Shown: positions 8,599-62,964 of the stretch, piece after piece | How positions within the stretch are numbered: position 1 is the first letter of the stretch | Layout of the letters: each line of letters begins with the position of its first letter | From: Escherichia phage vB_Eco_slurp01 | Sequence record: LT603033 | Length of the DNA: 64,000 nt | Reading direction: 5' to 3' (one strand) | Made by a program: the position numbers and the translations under genes | Notes under the pieces: model-generated | Database searches by the model: none | The model's input: the letters and a program-made list of their open reading frames with translations, nothing else | What the model was told of the DNA's origin: nothing

Positions 8599-8713
8599 TT
8601 TAACTTTGGGACAACCATTCTTATTATGATATAATGTTTTATGTCATTCGATATAAATGACAACGGAACTATAAATATTATAGTAAAATTTATCTCTTAT
8701 AGGAGTTATAAAA

Positions 8714-9097
8714 ATGGTTGATAAATGGAATAAGAAAGATCCATCACATGATGTTGATATTTCTGGTCTAGACAATGCACATAAGCACAAGTATCTAGAT
8801 TCACTAGGTCTTCTAAAACCAGACCAAAGTCTTGCACATGATCGTCCATCCCGTGAAAAAGCATTTAGCCTAGAATCACTAGGTCATGAGCTTAATCGTG
8901 TGTTTGAGGATCACCCAATCTATGTACGTGATATTATCGAGAAACTTAAAGTAACTCCTAAAGAGCACTTTAAAGCAACAGTACACTCTGCATTCCGTGC
9001 ATTGCATGATTCTCTCAAGAAAACTCACAATCTTCGTAAAATTCATGATGAAATCGTGAATGCAATCGAAAGTGAAAAACATAAGTTCAAGAAGTAA
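8714..9097 (+). CDS. hypothetical protein, paralogous to N-terminal part of 9343..10896
   Basis: RBS AGGAG; shares YLDSLGLLK-type and KxxPKE motifs with downstream 517-aa protein. Confidence 0.65.
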   Translation: MVDKWNKKDPSHDVDISGLDNAHKHKYLDSLGLLKPDQSLAHDRPSREKAFSLESLGHELNRVFEDHPIYVRDIIEKLKVTPKEHFKATVHSAFRALHDSLKKTHNLRKIHDEIVNAIESEKHKFKK

Positions 9098-9104
9098 TAA
9101 AAAG

Positions 9105-9137
9105 GGGTTGACTAAGGTCAGCCCTTTGTTGTATCAT
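9105..9137 (+). promoter_or_regulatory. stem-loop/promoter hybrid (variant)
   Basis: GGGTTGAC-TAAG-GTCAGCCC hairpin, T-run, TATCAT -10. Confidence 0.5.
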
Positions 9138-9166
9138 AACTTCTCAATATAACTGAGGTATCATAT

Positions 9167-9280
9167 ATGCAAGGTTTGAAATTTGTAGTTGCTGCACTCA
9201 TCGCCGCAGTACTGGTTGGTGGTGTATTCTATGTAGTGGATCAAAAAGTAAATCCACCTGCACAAGAACAATCTAAGTAA
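9167..9280 (+). CDS. small membrane protein (37 aa)
   Basis: GAGG RBS; single hydrophobic helix; bracketed by two hairpin/promoter elements. Confidence 0.45.
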   Translation: MQGLKFVVAALIAAVLVGGVFYVVDQKVNPPAQEQSK

Positions 9281-9288
9281 CAAAATAA

Positions 9289-9319
9289 GGTTGACTTCGG
9301 TCAGCCTTTTCTTTATACT
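9289..9319 (+). promoter_or_regulatory. stem-loop/promoter hybrid (PeSL-like)
   Basis: GGTTGACTTCGGTCAGCC + TTTTC + TATACT. Confidence 0.55.
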
Positions 9320-9342
9320 ATAAATATAGACATAGAGAAAAA

Positions 9343-10896
9343 ATGAAATCTATGGAGAGAAATCAAATGCCAAGTAATTTTACTGATAAAAATGGTGGTA
9401 ACATGGCTGGTCACTCTGATAAATGGAGTGAACGCAACCGCCGTCCAAATAGTTATCAAGCAGGTCAAGGTTCACGTGGGTCACGTAATCAAGGAACTGG
9501 TCTAGCTGGTAAAGCAAACGCAGAAGCAGGTGAAGTTAAGAGTACTGAGAACATGACTGAGCTAGAAAAGCTACGTTATGTTAATTCATTGGGACTTCTT
9601 AATGCTACACAAAAACAACGCCTAGCTGATATGGAACGTGAAGAAAAAGAAAAGTCTTCTCCTGCGAAAGAAGAACCAAAACAAGAAGCACCGAAGGCGG
9701 TTAACCCTGTCAAAGAATTGTCTGATAAGTTAGGTAAGATTTTTGCTAATAAACCACAACTTATCCAAGGTATTGTGAAAGAATTGCAATCTGTACCTAA
9801 AGAAGAATTAAAAGTCAAAGCACAAGCTGTACTTGATGCAATGAGTGGAAATACCAGTACTGAACCAACTGAAGTATTCAGTACTATAATGCGTGCACTT
9901 GAAGGTAAACCACAGGGTGACGAGACTGCACAAGAGGAAGTAAGTCTTGAAAGCGTACTTAAAACATTTGATAGTATTGGTAAAGAAGACCGTGCTAATG
10001 CTCAACAAGTTAAGAATGTACTAGCTAAGTTAGAAAACCGTCTGGAAGGTAAAGACGATAAGATTAAATTAGTATCTGATGCAGTTAACGATGCACTTAA
10101 ATCTTACGTACAAGGTGAAAAGAGTCGTTTTGTAACTGCAATGGATGCTGCATTCAATACTATGAAAAAGTATGAAGCTGATCATGGTGAGAAGGTTACA
10201 CGAGATGGTTATCTGATGCGTGATGATGAAGAAGGTGCAGTTGACCAGAAAGATGCTGAAACATCTCATGATGATTTACCTGATACTGTTGATATGGATG
10301 GTTACATTCATCGTCCAGAAATGGGAGAGTTTGGTTCTGACAAAGAAGGATTTGAACATGCAATGGCAGTGTACAAAGCTCTCGTGGACAATCCAGATTA
10401 TGCCAACCGATTTGTAGATGAGTTTGATAGTGCATGGAACAACTACAAAGACAAAGGTTATGACTTCCCTGCTGAGGCAGCATTCTTTGAACTTGGTAAA
10501 CTATTAGCTAAACATGGAATTGATGTAGGTTCTAAAGATGGTACTGATACTGATGGCATGGAAGCAGAATTGGCTAAAGATCGTGAAATGAACGACAACT
10601 CCATTCATGAACTCCAAAAGCTAATGATGTGGATATCCGATATTGGTAAAAAAGCTGGTGCTGATAATAAGAGTATCAACAAAAACATTAGTTGGATTAA
10701 AAGTAATGTTGGTAAAAATGCTCGTAAACTACAAAAAGCATGGACTGATTTAGTAAATGGTGCTGATGATGTTGACATTGAATCACCTGAAGCATACGAA
10801 TATGCATTAACTACTCTTGATAATTCCTTTAAAGATTACGATAACGGTAACGTAACTCATTGGGAAAAGGACATCATGAGCAAATACGGTAAATGA
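9343..10896 (+). CDS. large acidic protein (517 aa), possible virion internal/injected protein
   Basis: Long ORF, highly charged (K/E/D-rich), no TM segments; function is inference only. Confidence 0.6.
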   Translation: MKSMERNQMPSNFTDKNGGNMAGHSDKWSERNRRPNSYQAGQGSRGSRNQGTGLAGKANAEAGEVKSTENMTELEKLRYVNSLGLLNATQKQRLADMEREEKEKSSPAKEEPKQEAPKAVNPVKELSDKLGKIFANKPQLIQGIVKELQSVPKEELKVKAQAVLDAMSGNTSTEPTEVFSTIMRALEGKPQGDETAQEEVSLESVLKTFDSIGKEDRANAQQVKNVLAKLENRLEGKDDKIKLVSDAVNDALKSYVQGEKSRFVTAMDAAFNTMKKYEADHGEKVTRDGYLMRDDEEGAVDQKDAETSHDDLPDTVDMDGYIHRPEMGEFGSDKEGFEHAMAVYKALVDNPDYANRFVDEFDSAWNNYKDKGYDFPAEAAFFELGKLLAKHGIDVGSKDGTDTDGMEAELAKDREMNDNSIHELQKLMMWISDIGKKAGADNKSINKNISWIKSNVGKNARKLQKAWTDLVNGADDVDIESPEAYEYALTTLDNSFKDYDNGNVTHWEKDIMSKYGK

Positions 10897-10906
10897 TAAA
10901 ACTAAA

Positions 10907-10938
10907 GGTTGACTTCGGTCAGCCTTTTTTTGTAAATA
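10907..10938 (+). promoter_or_regulatory. stem-loop/promoter hybrid (PeSL-like)
   Basis: GGTTGACTTCGGTCAGCC + T-run + TAAATA. Confidence 0.55.
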
Positions 10939-10966
10939 CAAAAGAGGAATTAAGAAGAGGATTACA

Positions 10967-11218
10967 ATGAAAAAATATATTATATTTGGAATTGTATTAT
11001 TTTCCAGTACTGCTTATGGTGCAGATTATCATTGCTCCGTAGCAAGGCAGGATTTCAGAAATGGGGAGTTCTATACTACCTCATACACAAAAGGAATAAT
11101 ACACGACACCGACAGAACTATTGGATTTAATGCGTTTGACAACAAAGATTCATATACTTCAGGTATACTATCTGAGCGTAAGACGGATGTACTCGGAATA
11201 GAAAAAGAGTTTCGGTGA
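10967..11218 (+). CDS. secreted protein (signal peptide)
   Basis: RBS AGAGGA; signal-like N-terminus ending AYGA. Confidence 0.6.
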   Translation: MKKYIIFGIVLFSSTAYGADYHCSVARQDFRNGEFYTTSYTKGIIHDTDRTIGFNAFDNKDSYTSGILSERKTDVLGIEKEFR

Positions 11219-11222
11219 TTCC

Positions 11223-11552
11223 GTGGCAATGTGTAATGACATTGAAAGTACTAAAACAATTTATTATAATAATGAACGTAACTATCGTTTTCATAATTTA
11301 ACCACAAATAAAAGTTTACTATTTTACAATTGTAAAGAAGTAATACTCCCATCAGACAATAGCTGTACTCCAACTAATCAACCCCCAGCACAATGTAATA
11401 CTCCCTCTGAACCTGATAAAAATAAAAAAGACAAAGATAAAGATAAAAAAGAAGACAAAAAACCTTTAAAAGATAAAAAGAAAGATAAAAAACCTAATCC
11501 GTTTAAAAATAATAAACCAGCACAACCCGATATGACGTGTAAAATAAAATAA
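11223..11552 (+). CDS. low-complexity K/D-rich protein
   Basis: Start uncertain (GTG 11223 or ATG 11229); KDKDKDKK repeats. Confidence 0.35.
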   Translation: MAMCNDIESTKTIYYNNERNYRFHNLTTNKSLLFYNCKEVILPSDNSCTPTNQPPAQCNTPSEPDKNKKDKDKDKKEDKKPLKDKKKDKKPNPFKNNKPAQPDMTCKIK

Positions 11553-13037: not shown

Positions 13038-13376
13038 ATGGAACAATATTTTGAATTAATAAACAAAGTATCATTTTATGTAGTATCTTTGGTTTGGGTG
13101 TATTATATGTTTTGCTACATTATTGCATTCTTCCGATACACTACTTTATATGAACGTATCTACTATGATGCCCCAATTTCATTCTTGATGTTTTGTGCAT
13201 GTACGTGGGGAATATTAGAAGTACTGATATGTGGGTATAGTACTGATGAATTAAATCTGGTATCGGTCTTGACTGGGTTTTCATTTGTTGTTATGATAGC
13301 TGCCGTTCCAGTATGGTTGTTCTTTGGACTAGTTCATCGCATTGATATATGGCGTTCTAATATCCCTGAAAAGTAA
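13038..13376 (+). CDS. small membrane protein, family A member 1
   Basis: Two or three hydrophobic helices; C-terminal R-x-N-I/L-P-E motif shared with next two ORFs. Confidence 0.6.
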   Translation: MEQYFELINKVSFYVVSLVWVYYMFCYIIAFFRYTTLYERIYYDAPISFLMFCACTWGILEVLICGYSTDELNLVSVLTGFSFVVMIAAVPVWLFFGLVHRIDIWRSNIPEK

Positions 13377-13385
13377 GGATTTGTA

Positions 13386-13727
13386 ATGATTTATTACACT
13401 AACATGTTTGCCTATGCTGTTGCTTGCATTTACATTGTTTACTTCTTATTCGGTGGAGTACTGTGCTTCTTTAAGTACAAAACGTTGTTCAACCGAATGT
13501 ACCCAAATCATCCAATTGTAGTTGTACTTTTGATTCTTTCAGTTTCTCAAATAATCGTTGAAACTACAATGGGTATCAGTAGTGTACATTATAGTTTTGG
13601 TACTATAGTAATTATTACTATGCTTATTGCATACATTTTAGTACTTGGATATGGTATCTTTGGTAATATTGGTATGAAAATGTATCATCGAATTAAAACA
13701 TTACGTGATAATCTACCGGAGCGTTGA
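13386..13727 (+). CDS. small membrane protein, family A member 2
   Basis: Paralog of 13038..13376; C-terminal LRDNLPER. Confidence 0.6.
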   Translation: MIYYTNMFAYAVACIYIVYFLFGGVLCFFKYKTLFNRMYPNHPIVVVLLILSVSQIIVETTMGISSVHYSFGTIVIITMLIAYILVLGYGIFGNIGMKMYHRIKTLRDNLPER

Positions 13728-13728
13728 T

Positions 13729-14073
13729 ATGTATAATTTGAACCTAATCTCATATATTATAACAACACTGTTTACATTCTATGCCTTTGTTGGTATAATC
13801 CTACTGTACTTTAAATTTTATAAAGTGTTTAACCGTTTCTATCCTTCAATGGAGAATGAGTTTTTCTTTGTGTTGTACGTAGGTTACACGTTAATGGCTA
13901 CATGTTTCACTGTAGCCGATGGTGTCATCGGCATTAAAACTGATTCCCCAAATGGTAGTACGCTGGTTGCATTTATTCTTACCGGATTCCTTGCAACTTA
14001 TATTGCCTTCATTACAACATGGTCAGTTGTTGAATTTCTCTTGCGACTACGAAAGAATATGCCGAATAGATAG
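13729..14073 (+). CDS. small membrane protein, family A member 3
   Basis: Paralog; C-terminal LRKNMPNR; ATG at 13729 directly after upstream stop. Confidence 0.55.
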   Translation: MYNLNLISYIITTLFTFYAFVGIILLYFKFYKVFNRFYPSMENEFFFVLYVGYTLMATCFTVADGVIGIKTDSPNGSTLVAFILTGFLATYIAFITTWSVVEFLLRLRKNMPNR

Positions 14074-24843: not shown

Positions 24844-24915
24844 TGTATCCTCCAAATGTAAATCGTTATTATATTTAGGACAAAAAAATGCCAGTACAAG
24901 GCACTGGCATAAAAT
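24844..24915 (-). promoter_or_regulatory. inter-paralog cassette (hairpin + RBS)
   Basis: TGCCAGT-ACAAGGC-ACTGGCA hairpin upstream of paralog 1. Confidence 0.45.
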
Positions 24916-26085
24916 CTAAGCAGAAGGCATATCCTTCATTTTAATAAATGAAAATTGTGTACCAGTATTTGTGGTTTGATCAGTAAAATATGAATTACTA
25001 CCAGCCCAGTACAATTCATTATTAACTATACAATATATAACAGAACTCGAACTCTGTGAATACACACGACTTATATTTGATGGTTCCACTCCAGTACTGA
25101 ACTGAACCGAACCCAACTGTGAACTTGGTATCACATCAGTTGGTCTACCTAAACCATTAACACCAGCCCCACCACCACATGTATATACCCCAGTACTATC
25201 AGTTGATATATTAACATAACCATTCCCGGCATTTTCAAATAGTATTTCACTGGGAACAACACCAAATCCTGTAAGATCTATTTTCCTGAATGTAGTGTAA
25301 ACAGTAGAACCACCAACACCTCTTCCACCATAATCATTAGAACCAGCCATATAGATACTATATCCAGAACTTCCTAAACATAATAACTGTACGTTGTCAT
25401 ATAATATTTGCATAGATATAACGTTATCAGGAATACTCAATACCGTAAAAGTAGTTAAAGAAGAACTTCCAATATTACTACCAACCGATGTTCCACATCT
25501 GTAGTACTTACCGCCTTTTATATAATGGAACGATGAACCGCCTAACTTATGTGCTCCTATTGCACTTACCCCAGTATCTATAAGAATGGGAGATACAACT
25601 TTGTTATTAACACCTAACTCAGATCTACTGTTCATACCGAACCCATATAAACGACCATCTAACATCAATATTAGTGTACTACCGGAAGTACCCGCTGACG
25701 TAAATTCTATATTCTTTATTTGCGACACGTCAATACCTACAAATAATGAAGTTACTTCAGTCCAGTTAACATATGAACCACTAGCCCCAAAATATCCACC
25801 CATGTATAGACCTGCACAATATAACTTATTATCAACAGTCTTTATTAATGTACCGGATACACACGCCCAAAAATCATCAACTTCATAGGGTACATGTACC
25901 CAACCACCTAATACATCACTAGCATCCCCTGTACCTAATTTATAGTTCGAACCAGAACCACGCATGTACATATTCCCTGTACTATAAAGTAATCCGACAT
26001 GTAATTGACTACCATCCAATTTCTTTATTTCAGGAAGAGTTGGTTTAATATTTCCGTACTTTAACATTCTTCCAAAAGGTAACAT
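24916..26085 (-). CDS. RCC1-like repeat (beta-propeller) protein paralog 2
   Basis: 389 aa; N-terminus MLPFGRMLKYGNIKP; G/S/T/N/Y-rich repeats; RBS AAGGAGG. Confidence 0.8.
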   Translation of the reverse strand: MLPFGRMLKYGNIKPTLPEIKKLDGSQLHVGLLYSTGNMYMRGSGSNYKLGTGDASDVLGGWVHVPYEVDDFWACVSGTLIKTVDNKLYCAGLYMGGYFGASGSYVNWTEVTSLFVGIDVSQIKNIEFTSAGTSGSTLILMLDGRLYGFGMNSRSELGVNNKVVSPILIDTGVSAIGAHKLGGSSFHYIKGGKYYRCGTSVGSNIGSSSLTTFTVLSIPDNVISMQILYDNVQLLCLGSSGYSIYMAGSNDYGGRGVGGSTVYTTFRKIDLTGFGVVPSEILFENAGNGYVNISTDSTGVYTCGGGAGVNGLGRPTDVIPSSQLGSVQFSTGVEPSNISRVYSQSSSSVIYCIVNNELYWAGSNSYFTDQTTNTGTQFSFIKMKDMPSA

Positions 26086-26095
26086 ATTCCCTCCT

Positions 26096-27238
26096 TTATA
26101 TTATATTTAATTTTTGATATGTGGGATATATTTCTTGACTTGGTTTATCTAAAATATATTGTACGTTACCTGCACCATATAAACTACCATCAATAGTAGC
26201 TAATTTAACATTAGTATCACCAGCCACCCACGATGTCATTTTTGATGCACCTGGAACTAAAGTTGTATTTTTTACGCTGGTGGAAACGGAATTTACCCCC
26301 AAACTACTACTTAAGTTATATCCACTACTATAAACTTCACCATTAATTCTAAATTTAACGTATACTGGTAAGTTAACAGCATTACCATAGTTGTAGTTTG
26401 TATGCTTTATAAAACGAAACTCTGAACTTACATATGTTTCCGGTTGAGCTACACTGTATATATTGTATGACTGAAAGGTACTACCAGCCGCAGAATTTAA
26501 TAATCCAGTGTCCCCAGTATAGCCACTAAAATAAACTGAAGTAGCATCACTCCACATAAAACAAGATGTTGCAGTTAAATAAAAATCAATCACATTTGAC
26601 TTAACTACTCTTGGTGTCAGGTAACCAGTACCGCCCACAGTTGTGAAGCAGTTGAATCTGTTCTCACCCCACGCAACAACGTCGCCATTCGATCTTATTC
26701 CACATGCGTTCAGATGACCAAATTGCATTTTAGAAACACCAGTAAGGTTTGTATTTTGTGTCCATGTAGGGGCGTATGTTGTAGTACTTGCTAACCCAAT
26801 CATACCATATAAATTAGAACCTAAAACCCAAACTGAACCATCGGCGTTTACAATAACAGTTGCATGATCACGTGCAACATATATTTCGCTCGCATTGTCA
26901 AATTTGTCTTTGATTAAACTATCAATGTTAATAAAAACATTACCACTATCTCCATATGCATATGCTGCTCCACTAAACCAATATGAACTATCATTTTTTA
27001 AAATAGTTAATCCAGACTGACTAAACCAAAAATTAACCACATTTTCGGCTATTAATGTACGTACTGTAAGTGTTGTTCTATTTCCTAATCCAAATTGACC
27101 TGCTGATTGAGTCCCACTTGCATATAATTTACCATCACTTGTAAGTATTATACAACCATTTATTGTTAAATCTACTTTTTTTATATCAAGTGGGATTATC
27201 ATATTCCCGTACTGAATCATTCTTGCAAAAGGTAACAT
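26096..27238 (-). CDS. RCC1-like repeat protein paralog 3
   Basis: 380 aa; N-terminus MLPFARMIQYGN; GQFGLGN-type repeat motifs. Confidence 0.8.
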   Translation of the reverse strand: MLPFARMIQYGNMIIPLDIKKVDLTINGCIILTSDGKLYASGTQSAGQFGLGNRTTLTVRTLIAENVVNFWFSQSGLTILKNDSSYWFSGAAYAYGDSGNVFINIDSLIKDKFDNASEIYVARDHATVIVNADGSVWVLGSNLYGMIGLASTTTYAPTWTQNTNLTGVSKMQFGHLNACGIRSNGDVVAWGENRFNCFTTVGGTGYLTPRVVKSNVIDFYLTATSCFMWSDATSVYFSGYTGDTGLLNSAAGSTFQSYNIYSVAQPETYVSSEFRFIKHTNYNYGNAVNLPVYVKFRINGEVYSSGYNLSSSLGVNSVSTSVKNTTLVPGASKMTSWVAGDTNVKLATIDGSLYGAGNVQYILDKPSQEIYPTYQKLNII

Positions 27239-27309
27239 AATTCCCTCCTTTATTCATTATACTATATTTAATACAAATAAGAAAGCCAGTACTCTGTACT
27301 GGCATAATG
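27239..27309 (-). promoter_or_regulatory. conserved cassette: hairpin terminator + TATAAT + RBS
   Basis: On gene strand: GCCAGTAC-AGAG-TACTGGC, TTTCTTATTTGTATTAAATATAGTATAATGAATAAAGGAGG, then ATG. Confidence 0.55.
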
Positions 27310-53451: not shown

Positions 53452-53589
53452 ATGAATCCTAACGGTATAATTTACAGTACTCCTAAAACGAAAGCAGACA
53501 AGGTAAACGCTAAAAAAGCGAAAGTAAAGGAGTACATCAAGCAAGGCATGACGCGAAAGGCGGCGATTCTAAAAGCTAAAAATAAATGA
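53452..53589 (+). CDS. small basic protein (45 aa)
   Basis: TAAATG junction; followed directly by hairpin/promoter element. Confidence 0.35.
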   Translation: MNPNGIIYSTPKTKADKVNAKKAKVKEYIKQGMTRKAAILKAKNK

Positions 53590-53596
53590 AAAAAGT

Positions 53597-53628
53597 GGTT
53601 GACTTCGGTCAGCCATTTTGCTATTATA
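53597..53628 (+). promoter_or_regulatory. stem-loop/promoter hybrid (PeSL-like)
   Basis: TGGTTGACTTCGGTCAGCCA + TTTTG + TATTAT. Confidence 0.55.
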
Positions 53629-53800
53629 TATTCATTGAGAGATAGCTCACTAGCCCACAGGGTGCAGGAGTGTATCTATTGTATAATGTTTGAGTACTGA
53701 AAACTATTTTTAAAAAAGTACTTGAAAACTATCTCAATTGGCGTATAATGTTTTACATCGCAAGGGGAAACGGTTTCCCCTGGTAATAAGGAAACGAATC

Positions 53801-57042: not shown

Positions 57043-57188
57043 AAGAATTCTTATTTGAAGTAGTGTTTCAAGGTGTCGGTAATAACCAACTGATTCGCTC
57101 AAGTGGTTACAATGTTAACCAGGCATGGAATAACATTAAACAAATGTACCCGAACGCTATCACATATCGCAACCCGAAAGAAGTTTAA
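57039..57188 (+). CDS. small protein (49 aa)
   Basis: ATGA overlap; followed by hairpin/promoter element. Confidence 0.45.
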   Translation: MKEFLFEVVFQGVGNNQLIRSSGYNVNQAWNNIKQMYPNAITYRNPKEV

Positions 57189-57202
57189 AAATAATTGAAA
57201 AA

Positions 57203-57235
57203 GGGATTGACTCCGGTCAGTCCCTTTGCTATTAT
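57203..57235 (+). promoter_or_regulatory. stem-loop/promoter hybrid (variant)
   Basis: GGGATTGAC-TCCG-GTCAGTCCC + TTTGC + TATTAT. Confidence 0.55.
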
Positions 57236-57362
57236 ATACGCATAGAAACAAATCAGCCCACCGGGTGCATAAATGTATCTATTATATGCTGGTGGCTAGT
57301 ACTGAAAACTATTTTTAAAAAGTACTTGCATTGTACTTAGAATCAAGTATAATGTTTTACAT

Positions 57363-57440
57363 CAGGACGGGGAACGAAACAAGTAACCCCGTTAAGTAGT
57401 CCAGGAGTAAGACATAAGAAAACCTCCCCTGATAAAATAG
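57363..57440 (+). ncRNA. conserved roughly 80-nt structured element (copy 2)
   Basis: Near-identical to 47967..48046; between tandem promoters. Confidence 0.35.
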
Positions 57441-59871: not shown

Positions 59872-60456
59872 ATGCGTAATTATACTAAATTCATCCGTAC
59901 ACTGTCAGAAATGGAAACCAACAAAGAGATCCTTTCAGCTTGTCGGTTAGCTGGTCTGGAGATCATCGGTGCGGGTTCTTCCCGTATTGTATTCGCTTTA
60001 AATGATCGGTTAGTGATCAAGGTCGCGAATTGTGATGCGGGTGTAGAACAAAATGAAACTGAATGTAAGGTATGGAATTTTTTAGATTATGACCGCCCTC
60101 AATTGAAACAGTACTTTGCAAAGGTGCATATGCATTTATGCGATCCTGATAATATGTTTATCGTTATGGATCGGTTGAGTACTGCAAGTAAAGGCAGTGT
60201 GAAGCACGTTAACGCGTGCAACGAATTAAAGTACAATATTAAACGTAATGCCATTGAACGCCAGCACCGCTTTGCTGATGCACTACAACACGTCGATGAT
60301 ACATTATCAACACTAACGATAAGAGATATCAGAAAACAGAATATCGGCCAGGATCGTAATGGCCTTATTAAAGTACTTGATTACGGTTTAACCCGCAATA
60401 TCTGGAATCAGTACTATAAAAAGCGTGATGTAAAAGCCGTAACTATAACACGATAA
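59872..60456 (+). CDS. kinase-like fold protein (candidate atypical Ser/Thr kinase)
   Basis: RBS AAGGAG; IGAGSSRIV...VIKVA (Gly-loop + Lys), IRDIRKQNIG (catalytic-loop-like), VLDYG (DFG-like). Confidence 0.55.
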   Translation: MRNYTKFIRTLSEMETNKEILSACRLAGLEIIGAGSSRIVFALNDRLVIKVANCDAGVEQNETECKVWNFLDYDRPQLKQYFAKVHMHLCDPDNMFIVMDRLSTASKGSVKHVNACNELKYNIKRNAIERQHRFADALQHVDDTLSTLTIRDIRKQNIGQDRNGLIKVLDYGLTRNIWNQYYKKRDVKAVTITR

Positions 60457-60470
60457 AAAAGATTAAAAAA

Positions 60471-60503
60471 GGGATTGACTCCGGTCAGTCCCTTTGCTAA
60501 TAT
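60471..60503 (+). promoter_or_regulatory. stem-loop/promoter hybrid (variant)
   Basis: GGGATTGACTCCGGTCAGTCCC + TTTGC + TAATAT. Confidence 0.55.
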
Positions 60504-60687
60504 ATATTCATTGAGAGATAACTCACTGACCCACAGGGTGCATAAGTGTATCTATTATATAAGTATTCAGTACTGAAAACTATTTTAAAGTATTTGATAA
60601 AAAGTACTTGCATTGTACTTAGAATCAAGTATAATGTTTTATATCGAGAGGGGGAAATGGTTCTCCCTGGCAATAAGGAATAAAATC

Positions 60688-62721: not shown

Positions 62722-62738
62722 CAAAAAAGAATAAAAAA

Positions 62739-62771
62739 GGGATTGACTCCGGTCAGTCCCTTTGCTATTAT
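62739..62771 (+). promoter_or_regulatory. stem-loop/promoter hybrid (variant)
   Basis: GGGATTGACTCCGGTCAGTCCC + TTTGC + TATTAT. Confidence 0.55.
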
Positions 62772-62964
62772 ATACGCATAGACAAAAACTAGCCCACAGG
62801 GTGCATAGGTGTATCTAAAATATATAGTTAATAACGGTGAGTAACTATCTGCTGGTGGAGTGAAAACTATTAATAAAAAGTATTGACAAAGTATATCAGT
62901 ACTGCAATAATGTATCTCGTAGGGCGGCAATGGTGCGACGGTCCACAAAGTTAGGAGATTCAAA

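What the first reader, a model, noticed from the sequence alone, without database searches (positions are those of the whole stretch)
8714..10896. Acidic 517-aa protein and a short paralog sharing N-terminal motifs: possible packaged internal proteins
8714..9097 and 9343..10896 share YLDSLGLL(K/N) and (I/V)KEL..VPKE motifs, are highly charged and lack TM segments. They lie a few kb upstream of denV, and in T4 the internal-protein genes ipII/ipIII neighbour denV. They might therefore be capsid-packaged, injected proteins, which in T-even phages are hypervariable and often anti-restriction factors. The T4 capsid-targeting sequence is not recognisable here, so this is speculative.
Basis: inference. 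Interest (0 to 1): 0.4.

Follow-up and report, generated by a model that had tools for sequence, protein, structure and literature searches.

The report
Two late jumbo-phage virion proteins
These two related genes of a 121Q/RaK2-type jumbo coliphage encode low-copy, all-helical proteins whose orthologs published mass spectrometry already finds in purified virions; whether they sit inside the head and are injected is still untested.

Summary
Both ORFs exist and are true paralogs (BLASTP E=3e-8; both hit PHROG 16530). Two corrections: ORF B most likely starts at 9367 (509 aa), and ORF A is basic (pI 9.05), not acidic.

The window is not T-even. It is an Asteriusvirus-type jumbo phage, 99% identical to phage SHEFM2K. 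The genes are 121Q gp199/gp201 and are already annotated "virion structural protein".

Published virion MS detects orthologs or family members in five phages of three genera: phAPEC6, JP4, CBB, GAP32 and RaK2.

New here:
- The T4-type late box TATAAATA occurs only twice in 64 kb, once before each gene. The same box precedes the MCP and scaffold genes in JP4.
- ORF B is a string of helical bundles. It has a conserved ~190-aa N-module (the whole protein in GAP32/CBB), a mosaic middle and a conserved C-module.
- ORF B lies in a sharp divergence island within otherwise ~99%-identical genomes. The cause is allele swapping, not positive selection.
- The family is small and has no informative fold match.

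Head-internal or injected location is plausible but unproven. The T4 ipII/ipIII-denV argument is invalid.

The parts
8670..8677 (+). TATAAATA late-promoter-type box, 36 nt before the ORF A start codon
   Evidence: One of only two TATAAATA/ATAAATA copies in the 64-kb window. Conserved in SHEFM2K, 121Q and phAPEC6. The same box precedes the MCP, scaffold and protease genes in JP4.
8701..8705 (+). Shine-Dalgarno AGGAG for ORF A
   Evidence: Read directly from the sequence.
8714..9097 (+). ORF A: 127 aa, 14.8 kDa, pI 9.05. It is 121Q gp199 = phAPEC6 gp037c = JP4_541. It is a short family member that lacks the G/S/N/R-rich N-terminal segment. It has a KYLDSLGLL helix plus a four-helix domain (residues 53-126).
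   Evidence: virion MS of orthologs.
9102..9131 (+). Hairpin terminator after ORF A (GGTTGACTAAGGTCAGCC core plus T-run)
9167..9280 (+). Intervening 37-aa hydrophobic peptide gene (121Q gp200, phrog_35037), with its own hairpin terminator at 9287-9308. It is probably not part of the A/B pair.
9291..9319 (+). Sigma-70-like promoter match (TTGACT-17-TATACT). Its -35 lies inside the terminator stem, and it abuts the late box.
   Evidence: consensus match only.
9319..9326 (+). TATAAATA late-promoter-type box, 40 nt before the ORF B start at 9367
   Evidence: K64-1 has the same box 37 nt before its ortholog's start codon.
9354..9357 (+). Shine-Dalgarno GGAG serving ATG 9367
9367..10896 (+). ORF B: 509 aa from ATG 9367 (517 aa if started at 9343), 56.6 kDa, pI 4.99. 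It is 121Q gp201 = phAPEC6 gp035c = JP4_543 = RaK2 gp275 = K64-1 gp344.
   Evidence: virion MS of orthologs.
9367..9936 (+). ORF B N-module (residues 1-190). It has a conserved but disordered G/S/N/Q/R-rich segment (1-57), an EKLRYVNSLGLL helix, a P/E/K linker and a four-helix domain (114-178). This module is the entire protein in GAP32_032 and CBB_38, and it is the part homologous to ORF A.
9937..10548 (+). ORF B variable middle (residues 191-394). It consists of helical bundles 194-273 and 319-382 joined by acidic disordered linkers. Residues ~296-388 are absent from the phAPEC6/JP4 allele, and other alleles carry different inserted modules.
10549..10893 (+). ORF B C-module (residues 395-509): a confidently predicted helical bundle (pLDDT ~90) conserved across genera. 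It also occurs as a stand-alone 146-aa protein (P0091).
10904..10927 (+). Hairpin terminator after ORF B (GGTTGACTTCGGTCAGCC plus T-run)
9600..11300 (.). Divergence island: 83-92% nucleotide identity to 121Q, against ~99% in 15 kb of flanks. It covers ORF B from about residue 80 onward plus the next 83-aa signal-peptide ORF (10967-11218).

Best explanation
ORF A and ORF B are paralogous members of a small protein family restricted to RaK2/121Q-like jumbo phages (PHROGs 16530 and 20398).

Each gene is a self-contained late transcription unit: its own TATAAATA late box, a Shine-Dalgarno sequence, and a hairpin terminator. The units are embedded in a region of small, mostly unknown-function genes.

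The products are incorporated into virions at low copy number, roughly portal level.

The shared helical core of the N-module (the ...KYxxSLGLL helix plus a four-helix domain) is the part common to every family member. I infer that it mediates virion incorporation. In ORF B this module carries a chain of exchangeable helical-bundle modules and a conserved C-terminal bundle.

My preferred reading is that both proteins are packaged inside the capsid with the DNA, as minor components of or next to the 121Q-type inner body. They would leave with the genome at infection, so the swappable part of ORF B would be the host-facing cargo.

Shown (by sequence analysis here): paralogy, family membership, late-promoter boxes, modular and mosaic architecture, divergence island.
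Shown in the literature for orthologs: presence in purified virions.
Inferred: low copy number, N-module as incorporation signal, head-internal location, ejection, host-directed function.
For: Virion presence of orthologs or family members:
- phAPEC6 gp037c and gp035c.
- JP4_541 and JP4_543.
- CBB_38: 9 peptides, 56.6% coverage.
- GAP32_032 and RaK2 ORF275 flagged MS-positive in CBB Suppl. S5 Table S1.

Late expression:
- ATAAATA occurs 2 times in 64 kb against ~46 expected. Same-composition 7-mers occur 7 to 60 times, all but one at least 26.
- Both copies sit 36-40 nt upstream of these two start codons and are conserved in relatives.
- In the JP4 head cluster the motif lies 20-55 nt upstream of the baseplate hub, a 734-aa virion protein, protease, scaffold and MCP genes.
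- The CBB paper reports ATAAATA before structural genes, plus a gp55-like sigma factor.

Low copy: JP4 label-free intensities are A 5.1e6, B 1.6e6, portal 1.9e6, MCP 6.6e8.

Consistent with an internal or ejected protein:
- All-alpha bundles with long disordered charged linkers and no beta-rich fibre- or tail-like domain.
- A basic G/S/R-rich N-terminus in ORF B, and a basic ORF A.
- The genes lie outside the structural module.
- 121Q and phAPEC6 have a bubblegram inner body whose components are unidentified.
- In CBB virions, peptides cover residues 50-172 of the homolog but none of the four expected tryptic peptides of residues 1-49. This hints at N-terminal processing.
- Mosaic allele exchange is confined to ORF B, as expected for a host-interacting protein.
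Against: - No experiment locates these proteins in the head rather than the tail, neck or fibres.
- Copy number looks far too low for a major inner-body component. A 91 x 18 nm body would need roughly 19 MDa of protein (my estimate from the dimensions).
- There is no T4-type L/I-x-E site and no conserved Glu in the first 49 residues of the family. No cleavage motif can be named.
- The missing N-terminal peptides are very hydrophilic and may simply be lost in LC-MS.
- ORF A lacks the conserved N-terminal segment yet is still found in virions, so that segment cannot be the sole targeting signal.
- CBB_38 and GAP32_032 have a strong sigma-70-like promoter upstream with only a CTAAATA variant box. 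Strictly late expression may therefore not hold across the family.
- dN/dS of 0.1-0.3 shows no arms-race signature within alleles.
Confidence: 0.45

Rival explanations
1. They are external or tail/neck-associated accessory proteins. For example, they could be adaptors or anchors for the hair-like fibres and whiskers that decorate the capsid and sheath of 121Q, phAPEC6 and CBB. The variable part of ORF B would then face the environment or the host surface.
For: phAPEC6 and 121Q carry unassigned decoration, fibre-anchoring and collar proteins. Mosaic allele exchange is also typical of host-recognition components. Virion MS cannot tell outside from inside.
Against: The predicted structure is helical bundles on disordered acidic linkers, with no beta-helix, Ig-like, collagen-like or trimeric coiled-coil fibre features. 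[quoted passage not shown] GAP32/CBB keep only the 170-aa N-module.
Confidence: 0.22
2. They are assembly factors (scaffold-, core- or chaperone-like helical proteins) that act during prohead assembly or DNA packaging. Only a residual fraction would stay trapped in mature particles.
For: They share late co-expression from the same box as the scaffold, protease and MCP genes. They are helical, charged and partly disordered like scaffolding proteins. Their apparent abundance is low and similar to residual scaffold and protease in JP4 virions.
Against: They were detected in five independent virion preparations with good coverage (48% and 56.6% for the short forms). A housekeeping assembly factor would not be expected to be the single mosaic hot-spot in 15 kb, nor to gain and lose whole modules.
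Confidence: 0.15
3. They are abundant late cytoplasmic, possibly nucleic-acid-binding proteins that merely co-purify with virions and have no virion function.
For: The phAPEC6, JP4 and CBB virion lists also contain evident non-structural proteins: thymidylate synthase, RecA-like, ssDNA-binding protein, PhoH, ClpP. ORF B has an RG-rich basic N-terminus.
Against: Detection is consistent across five phages, three genera and different laboratories and methods. Coverage is higher than for the obvious contaminants. The canonical late box is shared with the head genes.
Confidence: 0.1
4. They are homologs of the T4 internal proteins IPII/IPIII, retained next to denV as in T-even phages.
For: Only the loose proximity to denV and the small basic nature of ORF A.
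Against: The genome is a RaK2/121Q-like jumbo phage. No PHROG, Pfam or NCBIfam link to T4 IPs was found. There is no N-terminal CTS ending in L/I-x-E. Eighteen genes separate ORF B from denV. The family is confined to RaK2-like phages.
Confidence: 0.02

Closest known systems
121Q gp199/gp201 family (PHROG 16530/20398): phAPEC6 gp037c/gp035c, JP4_541/543, RaK2 gp275, K64-1 gp344, GAP32_032, CBB_38
   Same: Direct orthologs or paralogs: 85-99% identity within Asteriusvirus, and the N-module is conserved across genera. The locus layout and late box are the same, and the proteins are MS-detected in virions.
   Different: Nothing essential; the window carries one particular mosaic allele of ORF B (the 509-aa form, shared with SHEFM2K). 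The family itself has no assigned function or virion location. phAPEC6 mislabels gp035c as 'chromosome segregation protein'.
T4 internal proteins IPI/IPII/IPIII and Alt (head-packaged via a capsid-targeting sequence, injected with DNA)
   Same: Working analogy only. Like those proteins, these are late-made, non-essential-looking and encoded outside the main structural module. They are polymorphic between close relatives, present in virions at low to moderate copy, and include a small basic member (ORF A).
   Different: There is no sequence or profile similarity, no ~10-aa CTS and no L/I-x-E cleavage site. ORF B is large, acidic and multi-domain. Head location and injection are not demonstrated.
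phiKZ/SPN3US inner-body and ejection proteins
   Same: 121Q and phAPEC6 show the same bubblegram-type inner body. phiKZ inner-body proteins are likewise clade-specific paralog families made late and processed by the prohead protease (general knowledge; Thomas et al. 2012, cited).
   Different: The phAPEC6 authors found no similarity between any phAPEC6 protein and the phiKZ inner-body proteins. A and B appear low-copy rather than bulk components. No S/A/G-x-E-type processing site can be shown.
Injected 'polyvalent proteins' of phages and conjugative elements (Iyer et al., discussed in PMC7824862)
   Same: Beads-on-a-string architecture with modules that are gained, lost and also occur as stand-alone proteins.
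   Different: None of the ORF B modules matches a known enzymatic or polyvalent-protein domain. The protein is much smaller.

Membership tests
RaK2-like jumbo-phage virion protein family (PHROG 16530 / 20398) | Significant profile match to the family models | tested here: met
   ORF A hits phrog_16530 at 6.2e-56. ORF B hits phrog_20398 at 1.9e-218 and phrog_16530 at 7.6e-38. The tblastn and hmmsearch hit lists are made of RaK2-like phage proteins.
RaK2-like jumbo-phage virion protein family (PHROG 16530 / 20398) | Conserved locus and orthology with 121Q gp199/gp201 | tested here: met
   Colinear with SHEFM2K, 121Q, phAPEC6 and JP4 at 92-99% nucleotide identity.
RaK2-like jumbo-phage virion protein family (PHROG 16530 / 20398) | Protein physically present in purified virions | not testable with these tools
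   Not testable for this isolate. It is shown by published MS for orthologs and family members in phAPEC6, JP4, CBB, GAP32 and RaK2.
T4 internal proteins (IPI/IPII/IPIII) | N-terminal ~10-residue capsid-targeting sequence ending in an L/I-x-E site cut by the gp21 protease | tested here: not met
   The N-termini are MVDKWNKKDPSH and MPSNFTDKNGGN. The first Glu of ORF B is at residue 22 and is not conserved. CBB_38 has no Glu in residues 1-49.
T4 internal proteins (IPI/IPII/IPIII) | Sequence or profile homology to T4 IPs | tested here: not met
   The PHROGs, Pfam and NCBIfam scans return only the RaK2-like families or nothing.
T4 internal proteins (IPI/IPII/IPIII) | Gene position adjacent to denV/e as in T-even genomes | tested here: not met
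   denV is ~6.2 kb and 18 annotated genes downstream, and the genome is not T-even.
T4 internal proteins (IPI/IPII/IPIII) | Packaged in the head and injected with the DNA | not testable with these tools
   Needs head/tail fractionation and ejection assays.
phiKZ-type inner-body proteins | Homology to the phiKZ inner-body protein families | tested here: not met
   No PHROG or BFVD link to phiKZ proteins. The phAPEC6 authors report no similarity for any phAPEC6 protein.
phiKZ-type inner-body proteins | High copy number, sufficient to build the inner body | tested here: inconclusive
   JP4 label-free intensities put A and B at portal level, 100-400 times below the MCP. This is a single, crude data set.
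phiKZ-type inner-body proteins | Processing by the prohead protease | tested here: inconclusive
   CBB_38 peptides cover residues 50-172 only. No conserved cleavage motif was found.
SMC/SbcC 'chromosome segregation protein' (phAPEC6 annotation of gp035c) | SMC/SbcC ATPase head domains or a significant profile match | tested here: not met
   No Pfam or NCBIfam hit at E<=1. No PDB sequence hit. The phAPEC6 note itself cites an E-value of 0.039.

The most novel reading that the evidence does not exclude
The conserved N-module is a virion-incorporation (capsid-targeting) device that is unrelated to, and about ten times longer than, the T4 CTS. ORF B uses it to load exchangeable helical 'cargo' modules into the head of RaK2-like jumbo phages for co-injection with the DNA. 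Allele swapping of the cargo would reflect adaptation to different host defences. The basic short paralog (ORF A) would be a partner or DNA-associated core component. This would define the first internal/ejected protein system, and a protein-delivery handle, for this jumbo-phage clade. It would also give a first molecular entry point to the 121Q-type inner body.
Probability: 0.25. Interest if true: 0.65.

Novelty: already known. Interest (0 to 1): 0.33.

Why it matters
The RaK2/121Q clade contains some of the largest coliphages and Klebsiella phages considered for therapy. More than 80% of their genes have no assigned function, and the components of their inner body are unknown.

This locus offers a compact, testable handle. 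It holds two monocistronic late genes whose products are reproducibly in virions. One of them is the only mosaic hot-spot in 15 kb of otherwise near-identical genomes.

If the N-module proves to be a packaging signal, it could be used to load foreign proteins into jumbo-phage heads, as the CTS is used in T4. The variable modules would then be candidates for injected host-takeover or anti-defence factors. If instead the proteins are external or assembly remnants, the locus is ordinary.

Tried and rejected
1. T4 synteny and IP homology. Rejected: the genome is Asteriusvirus-like, there is no CTS and no profile link.
2. 'Chromosome segregation protein/SMC' label from phAPEC6. Rejected: no Pfam, NCBIfam or PDB support.
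4. Distant homologs. A profile search of 1.84 billion representatives gives only 37 clusters, all family fragments or low-complexity matches.
5. Extra paralogs in the window. None found by hmmsearch with N- and C-module HMMs on 962 six-frame ORFs.
6. A targeting segment shared with the 734-aa virion protein next to the portal, which has a similar G/S/R/N-rich stretch. BLASTP E=0.18, rejected.
7. Prohead-protease motif. No conserved L/I-x-E or other Glu site in the N-terminal region. The invariant NPVKELSD motif is not conserved as a Glu site in CBB/GAP32, and CBB peptides span it.
8. Positive selection as the cause of divergence. Rejected: dS is 0.5-0.8 with dN/dS 0.1-0.3, and the breakpoints are intragenic, which indicates allele exchange.
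9. 'Only late genes in the window'. Refined: the RCC1-like genes carry TTAAATA/CTAAATA variant boxes.
10. Peptide positions for phAPEC6 and JP4. Not available.
11. Rfam and tRNA scans of the window. Nothing found.
Full report
WHAT IS THERE

The two ORFs named in the finding exist on the + strand. ORF A is 8714..9097 (127 aa) and ORF B is 9343..10896 (517 aa). For ORF B the third in-frame ATG, at 9367, is the more likely start, giving 509 aa:
- It is preceded by GGAG at 9354-9357, 9 nt upstream.
- The SHEFM2K and 121Q records annotate this start.
- PHROG profile position 1 and all distant homologs align from that residue.

The two proteins are true paralogs. BLASTP gives E=3e-8 over ~115 residues, and both match phrog_16530 (6e-56 and 8e-38). 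Both are about one-third charged residues, hydrophilic and cysteine-free, with no hydrophobic segment. ORF B is acidic (pI 4.99) but ORF A is basic (pI 9.05).

WHOSE GENES THEY ARE

The window is not from a T-even phage. The 3.5 kb around the locus is 99.1% identical to Escherichia phage SHEFM2K. It is 92-97% identical to G17, Sharanji, phAPEC6, PBECO4 and 121Q, which are Asteriusvirus jumbo phages of ~350 kb.
- ORF A is 121Q gp199 = phAPEC6 gp037c = JP4_541.
- ORF B is 121Q gp201 = phAPEC6 gp035c = JP4_543.

Both are already annotated 'structural protein' or 'virion structural protein' in several records and in PHROGs. The N-terminal ~190 residues of ORF B are conserved in RaK2 (ORF275), K64-1 (gp344) and phages of Erwinia, Serratia, Yersinia, Salmonella and Xanthomonas. 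In GAP32 (gp032, 173 aa) and CBB (CBB_38, 172 aa) this module is the entire protein.

VIRION ASSOCIATION (LITERATURE, FOR ORTHOLOGS)

- phAPEC6 ESI-MS/MS of purified particles lists gp035c (8 unique peptides, 28.8% coverage) and gp037c (5 peptides, 48%) (PMC7247149).
- JP4 LC-MS/MS lists JP4_541 (127 aa, one substitution from ORF A; 4 peptides, 29%) and JP4_543 (the 417-aa allele of ORF B; 2 peptides) (PMC12648861 supplement).
- CBB MS lists CBB_38 (9 peptides, 56.6%) (PMC5259590). Its Supplementary S5 Table S1 marks CBB_038 = GAP32_032 = RaK2 ORF275 as MS-positive in all three phages.

So the family is found in virions of five phages from three genera.

JP4 label-free intensities are A 5.1e6, B 1.6e6, portal 1.9e6, protease 3.8e6, scaffold 9.0e6, sheath 1.2e8 and MCP 6.6e8. 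This is a single crude data set, but it points to low-copy components.

LATE EXPRESSION

Each gene is a monocistronic cassette. A TATAAATA box lies 36 nt (ORF A, 8670-8677) or 40 nt (ORF B, 9319-9326) upstream of the start codon, followed by a good Shine-Dalgarno sequence. Each gene ends with a strong hairpin terminator, at 9106 and 10907.

TATAAATA occurs only at these two places in the whole 64-kb window on either strand, against 13.8 +/- 3.8 expected. The 7-mer core ATAAATA also occurs only twice, against ~46 expected. Same-composition 7-mers occur 7 to 60 times, all but one of them at least 26 times. The motif is therefore strongly avoided except here.

Supporting observations:
- The boxes are conserved in SHEFM2K, 121Q and phAPEC6, and K64-1 has one 37 nt before the start codon of its ortholog.
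- In the JP4 head-gene cluster the motif occurs 7 times in 10.5 kb. It lies 20-55 nt upstream of the baseplate hub, a 734-aa virion protein, the protease, scaffold (TATAAATA) and MCP (TATAAATA) genes, always in the right orientation.
- The CBB authors independently reported ATAAATA/CTAAATA before structural genes of CBB and GAP32, together with a T4 gp55-like sigma factor.

I conclude, by inference from motif distribution, that ORF A and ORF B are late genes co-regulated with the head genes.

Two refinements apply. First, the RCC1-like paralogs on the - strand, which are also MS-positive in phAPEC6, carry TTAAATA or CTAAATA variants ~25 nt upstream. So ORF A and ORF B are the only genes with the canonical box, not the only putative late genes. 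Second, CBB_38 and GAP32_032 have a strong sigma-70-type promoter with a CTAAATA box between its hexamers. ORF B also has a sigma-70-like match whose -35 lies in the preceding terminator stem. Dual early/late expression therefore cannot be excluded.

ARCHITECTURE

The AF2 model of ORF B has mean pLDDT 72.5 and pTM 0.29. It is all-alpha. Residues 1-57 are disordered, followed by helical units 65-96, 114-178, 194-273, 319-382 and 395-506. The last unit has pLDDT ~90. The units are joined by disordered, mostly acidic linkers.

Family alignments show three zones.
- (i) An N-module. It begins with a remarkably conserved yet disordered G/S/N/Q/R-rich segment (MPxxFxxKNGxxxxGHSDKWSxxNRR..AGQGSRGSRNQGTG..GKAN). 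This is followed by the EKLKYFNSLGLL helix, a P/E/K linker and a four-helix domain with the invariant NPVKELSD..L...F motif.
- (ii) An indel-rich middle in which whole helical modules are present or absent between alleles.
- (iii) A conserved C-terminal bundle.

Individual modules also occur as stand-alone proteins elsewhere. P0091 is the C-module, P0102, P0105 and P0106 are a middle module, and P0097 has two tandem N-domain copies.

ORF A is a short-form member. Intermediates P0076 and P0085 have the full N-terminal segment plus an A-type helical domain, so ORF A derives from a ~170-aa form by loss of the first ~45 residues. Its model is a four-helix domain (residues 53-126, pLDDT ~80) preceded by the KYLDSLGLL helix.

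No function can be read from the fold:
- Foldseek against the PDB finds nothing.
- BFVD finds only family members.
- Pfam, NCBIfam and PDB sequence searches are empty.
- A profile search of 1.84 billion representatives returns only 37 clusters.

This is a small clade-restricted family.

HYPERVARIABILITY

Across 15 kb the window and 121Q are ~99% identical, except for a sharp island at ~9600-11300 with 83-92% identity. The island covers ORF B from about residue 80 onward plus the next 83-aa signal-peptide ORF.

Within the island dS is 0.5-0.8, against 0.02-0.04 in ORF A and the flanks, and dN/dS is 0.11-0.27. Against the phAPEC6/JP4 allele, residues 191-285 are nearly identical (dS 0.017), residues ~296-388 are deleted, and residues 396-509 are strongly diverged (dS 0.79).

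The pattern is recombinational exchange of old alleles with intragenic breakpoints, under purifying selection. It is not in-situ positive selection. Such population-level polymorphism is typical of host-interaction genes, but it does not say which kind.

HEAD-INTERNAL OR NOT

Points in favour:
- 121Q and phAPEC6 have a bubblegram inner body (91 x 18 nm) whose proteins are unidentified and unrelated to those of phiKZ.
- The proteins are helical and disordered, charged and non-fibrous.
- The genes sit outside the structural module but use the head-gene promoter type.
- In the CBB peptide-level data the homolog is covered from residue 50 to the C-terminus. None of the four expected tryptic peptides of residues 1-49 was seen in any gel slice, despite up to 38 spectra in one slice. 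This hints at N-terminal removal.

Points against or limiting:
- The apparent copy number is far too low for a bulk inner-body component.
- No protease motif can be defined.
- The missing peptides are very hydrophilic.
- ORF A lacks the conserved N-terminal segment yet is packaged.
- No fractionation or ejection data exist.

I therefore put ~0.9 on 'late-expressed minor virion proteins of the RaK2-like clade'. I put ~0.45 on the fuller model in which they are internal and ejected, with the N-module core as the incorporation device and the ORF B modules as cargo.

COMPARISON WITH KNOWN SYSTEMS

Membership of the 121Q gp199/gp201 family is established. Membership of the T4 IP family fails every testable criterion: CTS, homology and synteny. 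So does membership of the phiKZ inner-body families, and the SMC label used by phAPEC6 has no support.

Functionally, the nearest analogies are T4 IPs and Alt, and the phiKZ/SPN3US inner-body and ejection proteins. Architecturally, the nearest analogy is the injected modular 'polyvalent' proteins. All of these are analogies only.

VERDICT

The entity is already known and annotated as a virion protein pair, and its function is unknown. The new, checkable observations add modest interest and a clear experimental path:
- exclusive canonical late boxes;
- a modular, mosaic ORF B inside a divergence island;
- the origin of ORF A by N-terminal loss;
- the missing N-terminal peptides in CBB.

Noticed in passing
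window + strand: 5863, 9106, 9289, 10907, 11991, 16565, 17490, 19671, 53597, 57205, 60473, 62741: A near-identical hairpin (GGTTGACTTCGGTCAGCC plus T-run) recurs 12 times, against 0.01 expected. Its stem contains TTGACT, and most copies are followed 17-18 nt later by TATAAT, TATGAT or TATTAT. The element therefore looks like a combined terminator and sigma-70-type promoter cassette separating transcription units.
   Followed up: partly
whole window, both strands: Extreme avoidance of the T4-late-promoter core ATAAATA: 2 copies against ~46 expected. Same-composition 7-mers occur 7 to 60 times, all but one of them at least 26 times. This implies genome-wide counter-selection of spurious late promoters.
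   Followed up: yes
window ~24850-38300, - strand: A tandem array of ~13 RCC1-like ('regulator of chromosome condensation') paralogs, which are virion-associated in phAPEC6. Most are preceded ~25 nt upstream by a stereotyped tttgtaTTAAATAtagtataatgaataaaggagg leader; one has a CTAAATA box at 24878. These may be variant late promoters.
   Followed up: partly
window 53580-53760, 57188-57368, 60456-60636, 62724-62904 (+): Four copies of a ~170-nt intergenic element. It consists of the hairpin variant GATTGACTCCGGTCAGTC, TATTATAT, a conserved AGCCCACAGGGTGCAT block, an inverted repeat GTACTGAAAACTATTTTT...AAAAAGTACTTG, and a second promoter-like TTGCA...TATAAT. There is no Rfam or tRNA match and the function is unknown.
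   Followed up: partly
window ~38660-43470 (SHEFM2K 80384-85187), + strand in the window: A long tandem array of ~20 small (~60-aa) paralogous ORFs, many in phrog_11711, of unknown function.
   Followed up: no
window 9167-9280 (+): A 37-aa hydrophobic peptide gene (phrog_35037, 121Q gp200) sits between the two virion-protein genes. It has its own promoter-like site and hairpin terminator. It has a weak sub-threshold resemblance to the Phr signal-peptide N-terminus (E=0.019).
   Followed up: partly
window 10967-11218 (+): An 83-aa protein with a signal peptide (phrog_28901) lies immediately downstream of ORF B and inside the same divergence island relative to 121Q.
   Followed up: no
window 13038-14073 (+): Three tandem paralogous small multi-pass membrane proteins of 112, 113 and 122 aa, all ending in ...R(S/D/K)N(I/L/M)P(E/N)(K/R). 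The first two are assigned to phrog_19285 in the SHEFM2K record.
   Followed up: no
JP4 locus L011:981-3185 (outside the window): The 734-aa virion protein encoded just upstream of the portal gene has a G/S/R/N-rich N-terminal stretch and glycine/alanine-rich hydrophobic segments, so it is itself a candidate ejection or tape-measure-like protein. It is not significantly similar to ORF B (E=0.18).
   Followed up: partly
phAPEC6, JP4 and CBB virion proteomes (literature): A ClpP-like protease subunit is detected in JP4 (JP4_199) and CBB (CBB_104) virions, in addition to the T4 gp21-like prohead protease. This raises the question of which protease, if any, processes head proteins in this clade.
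   Followed up: no
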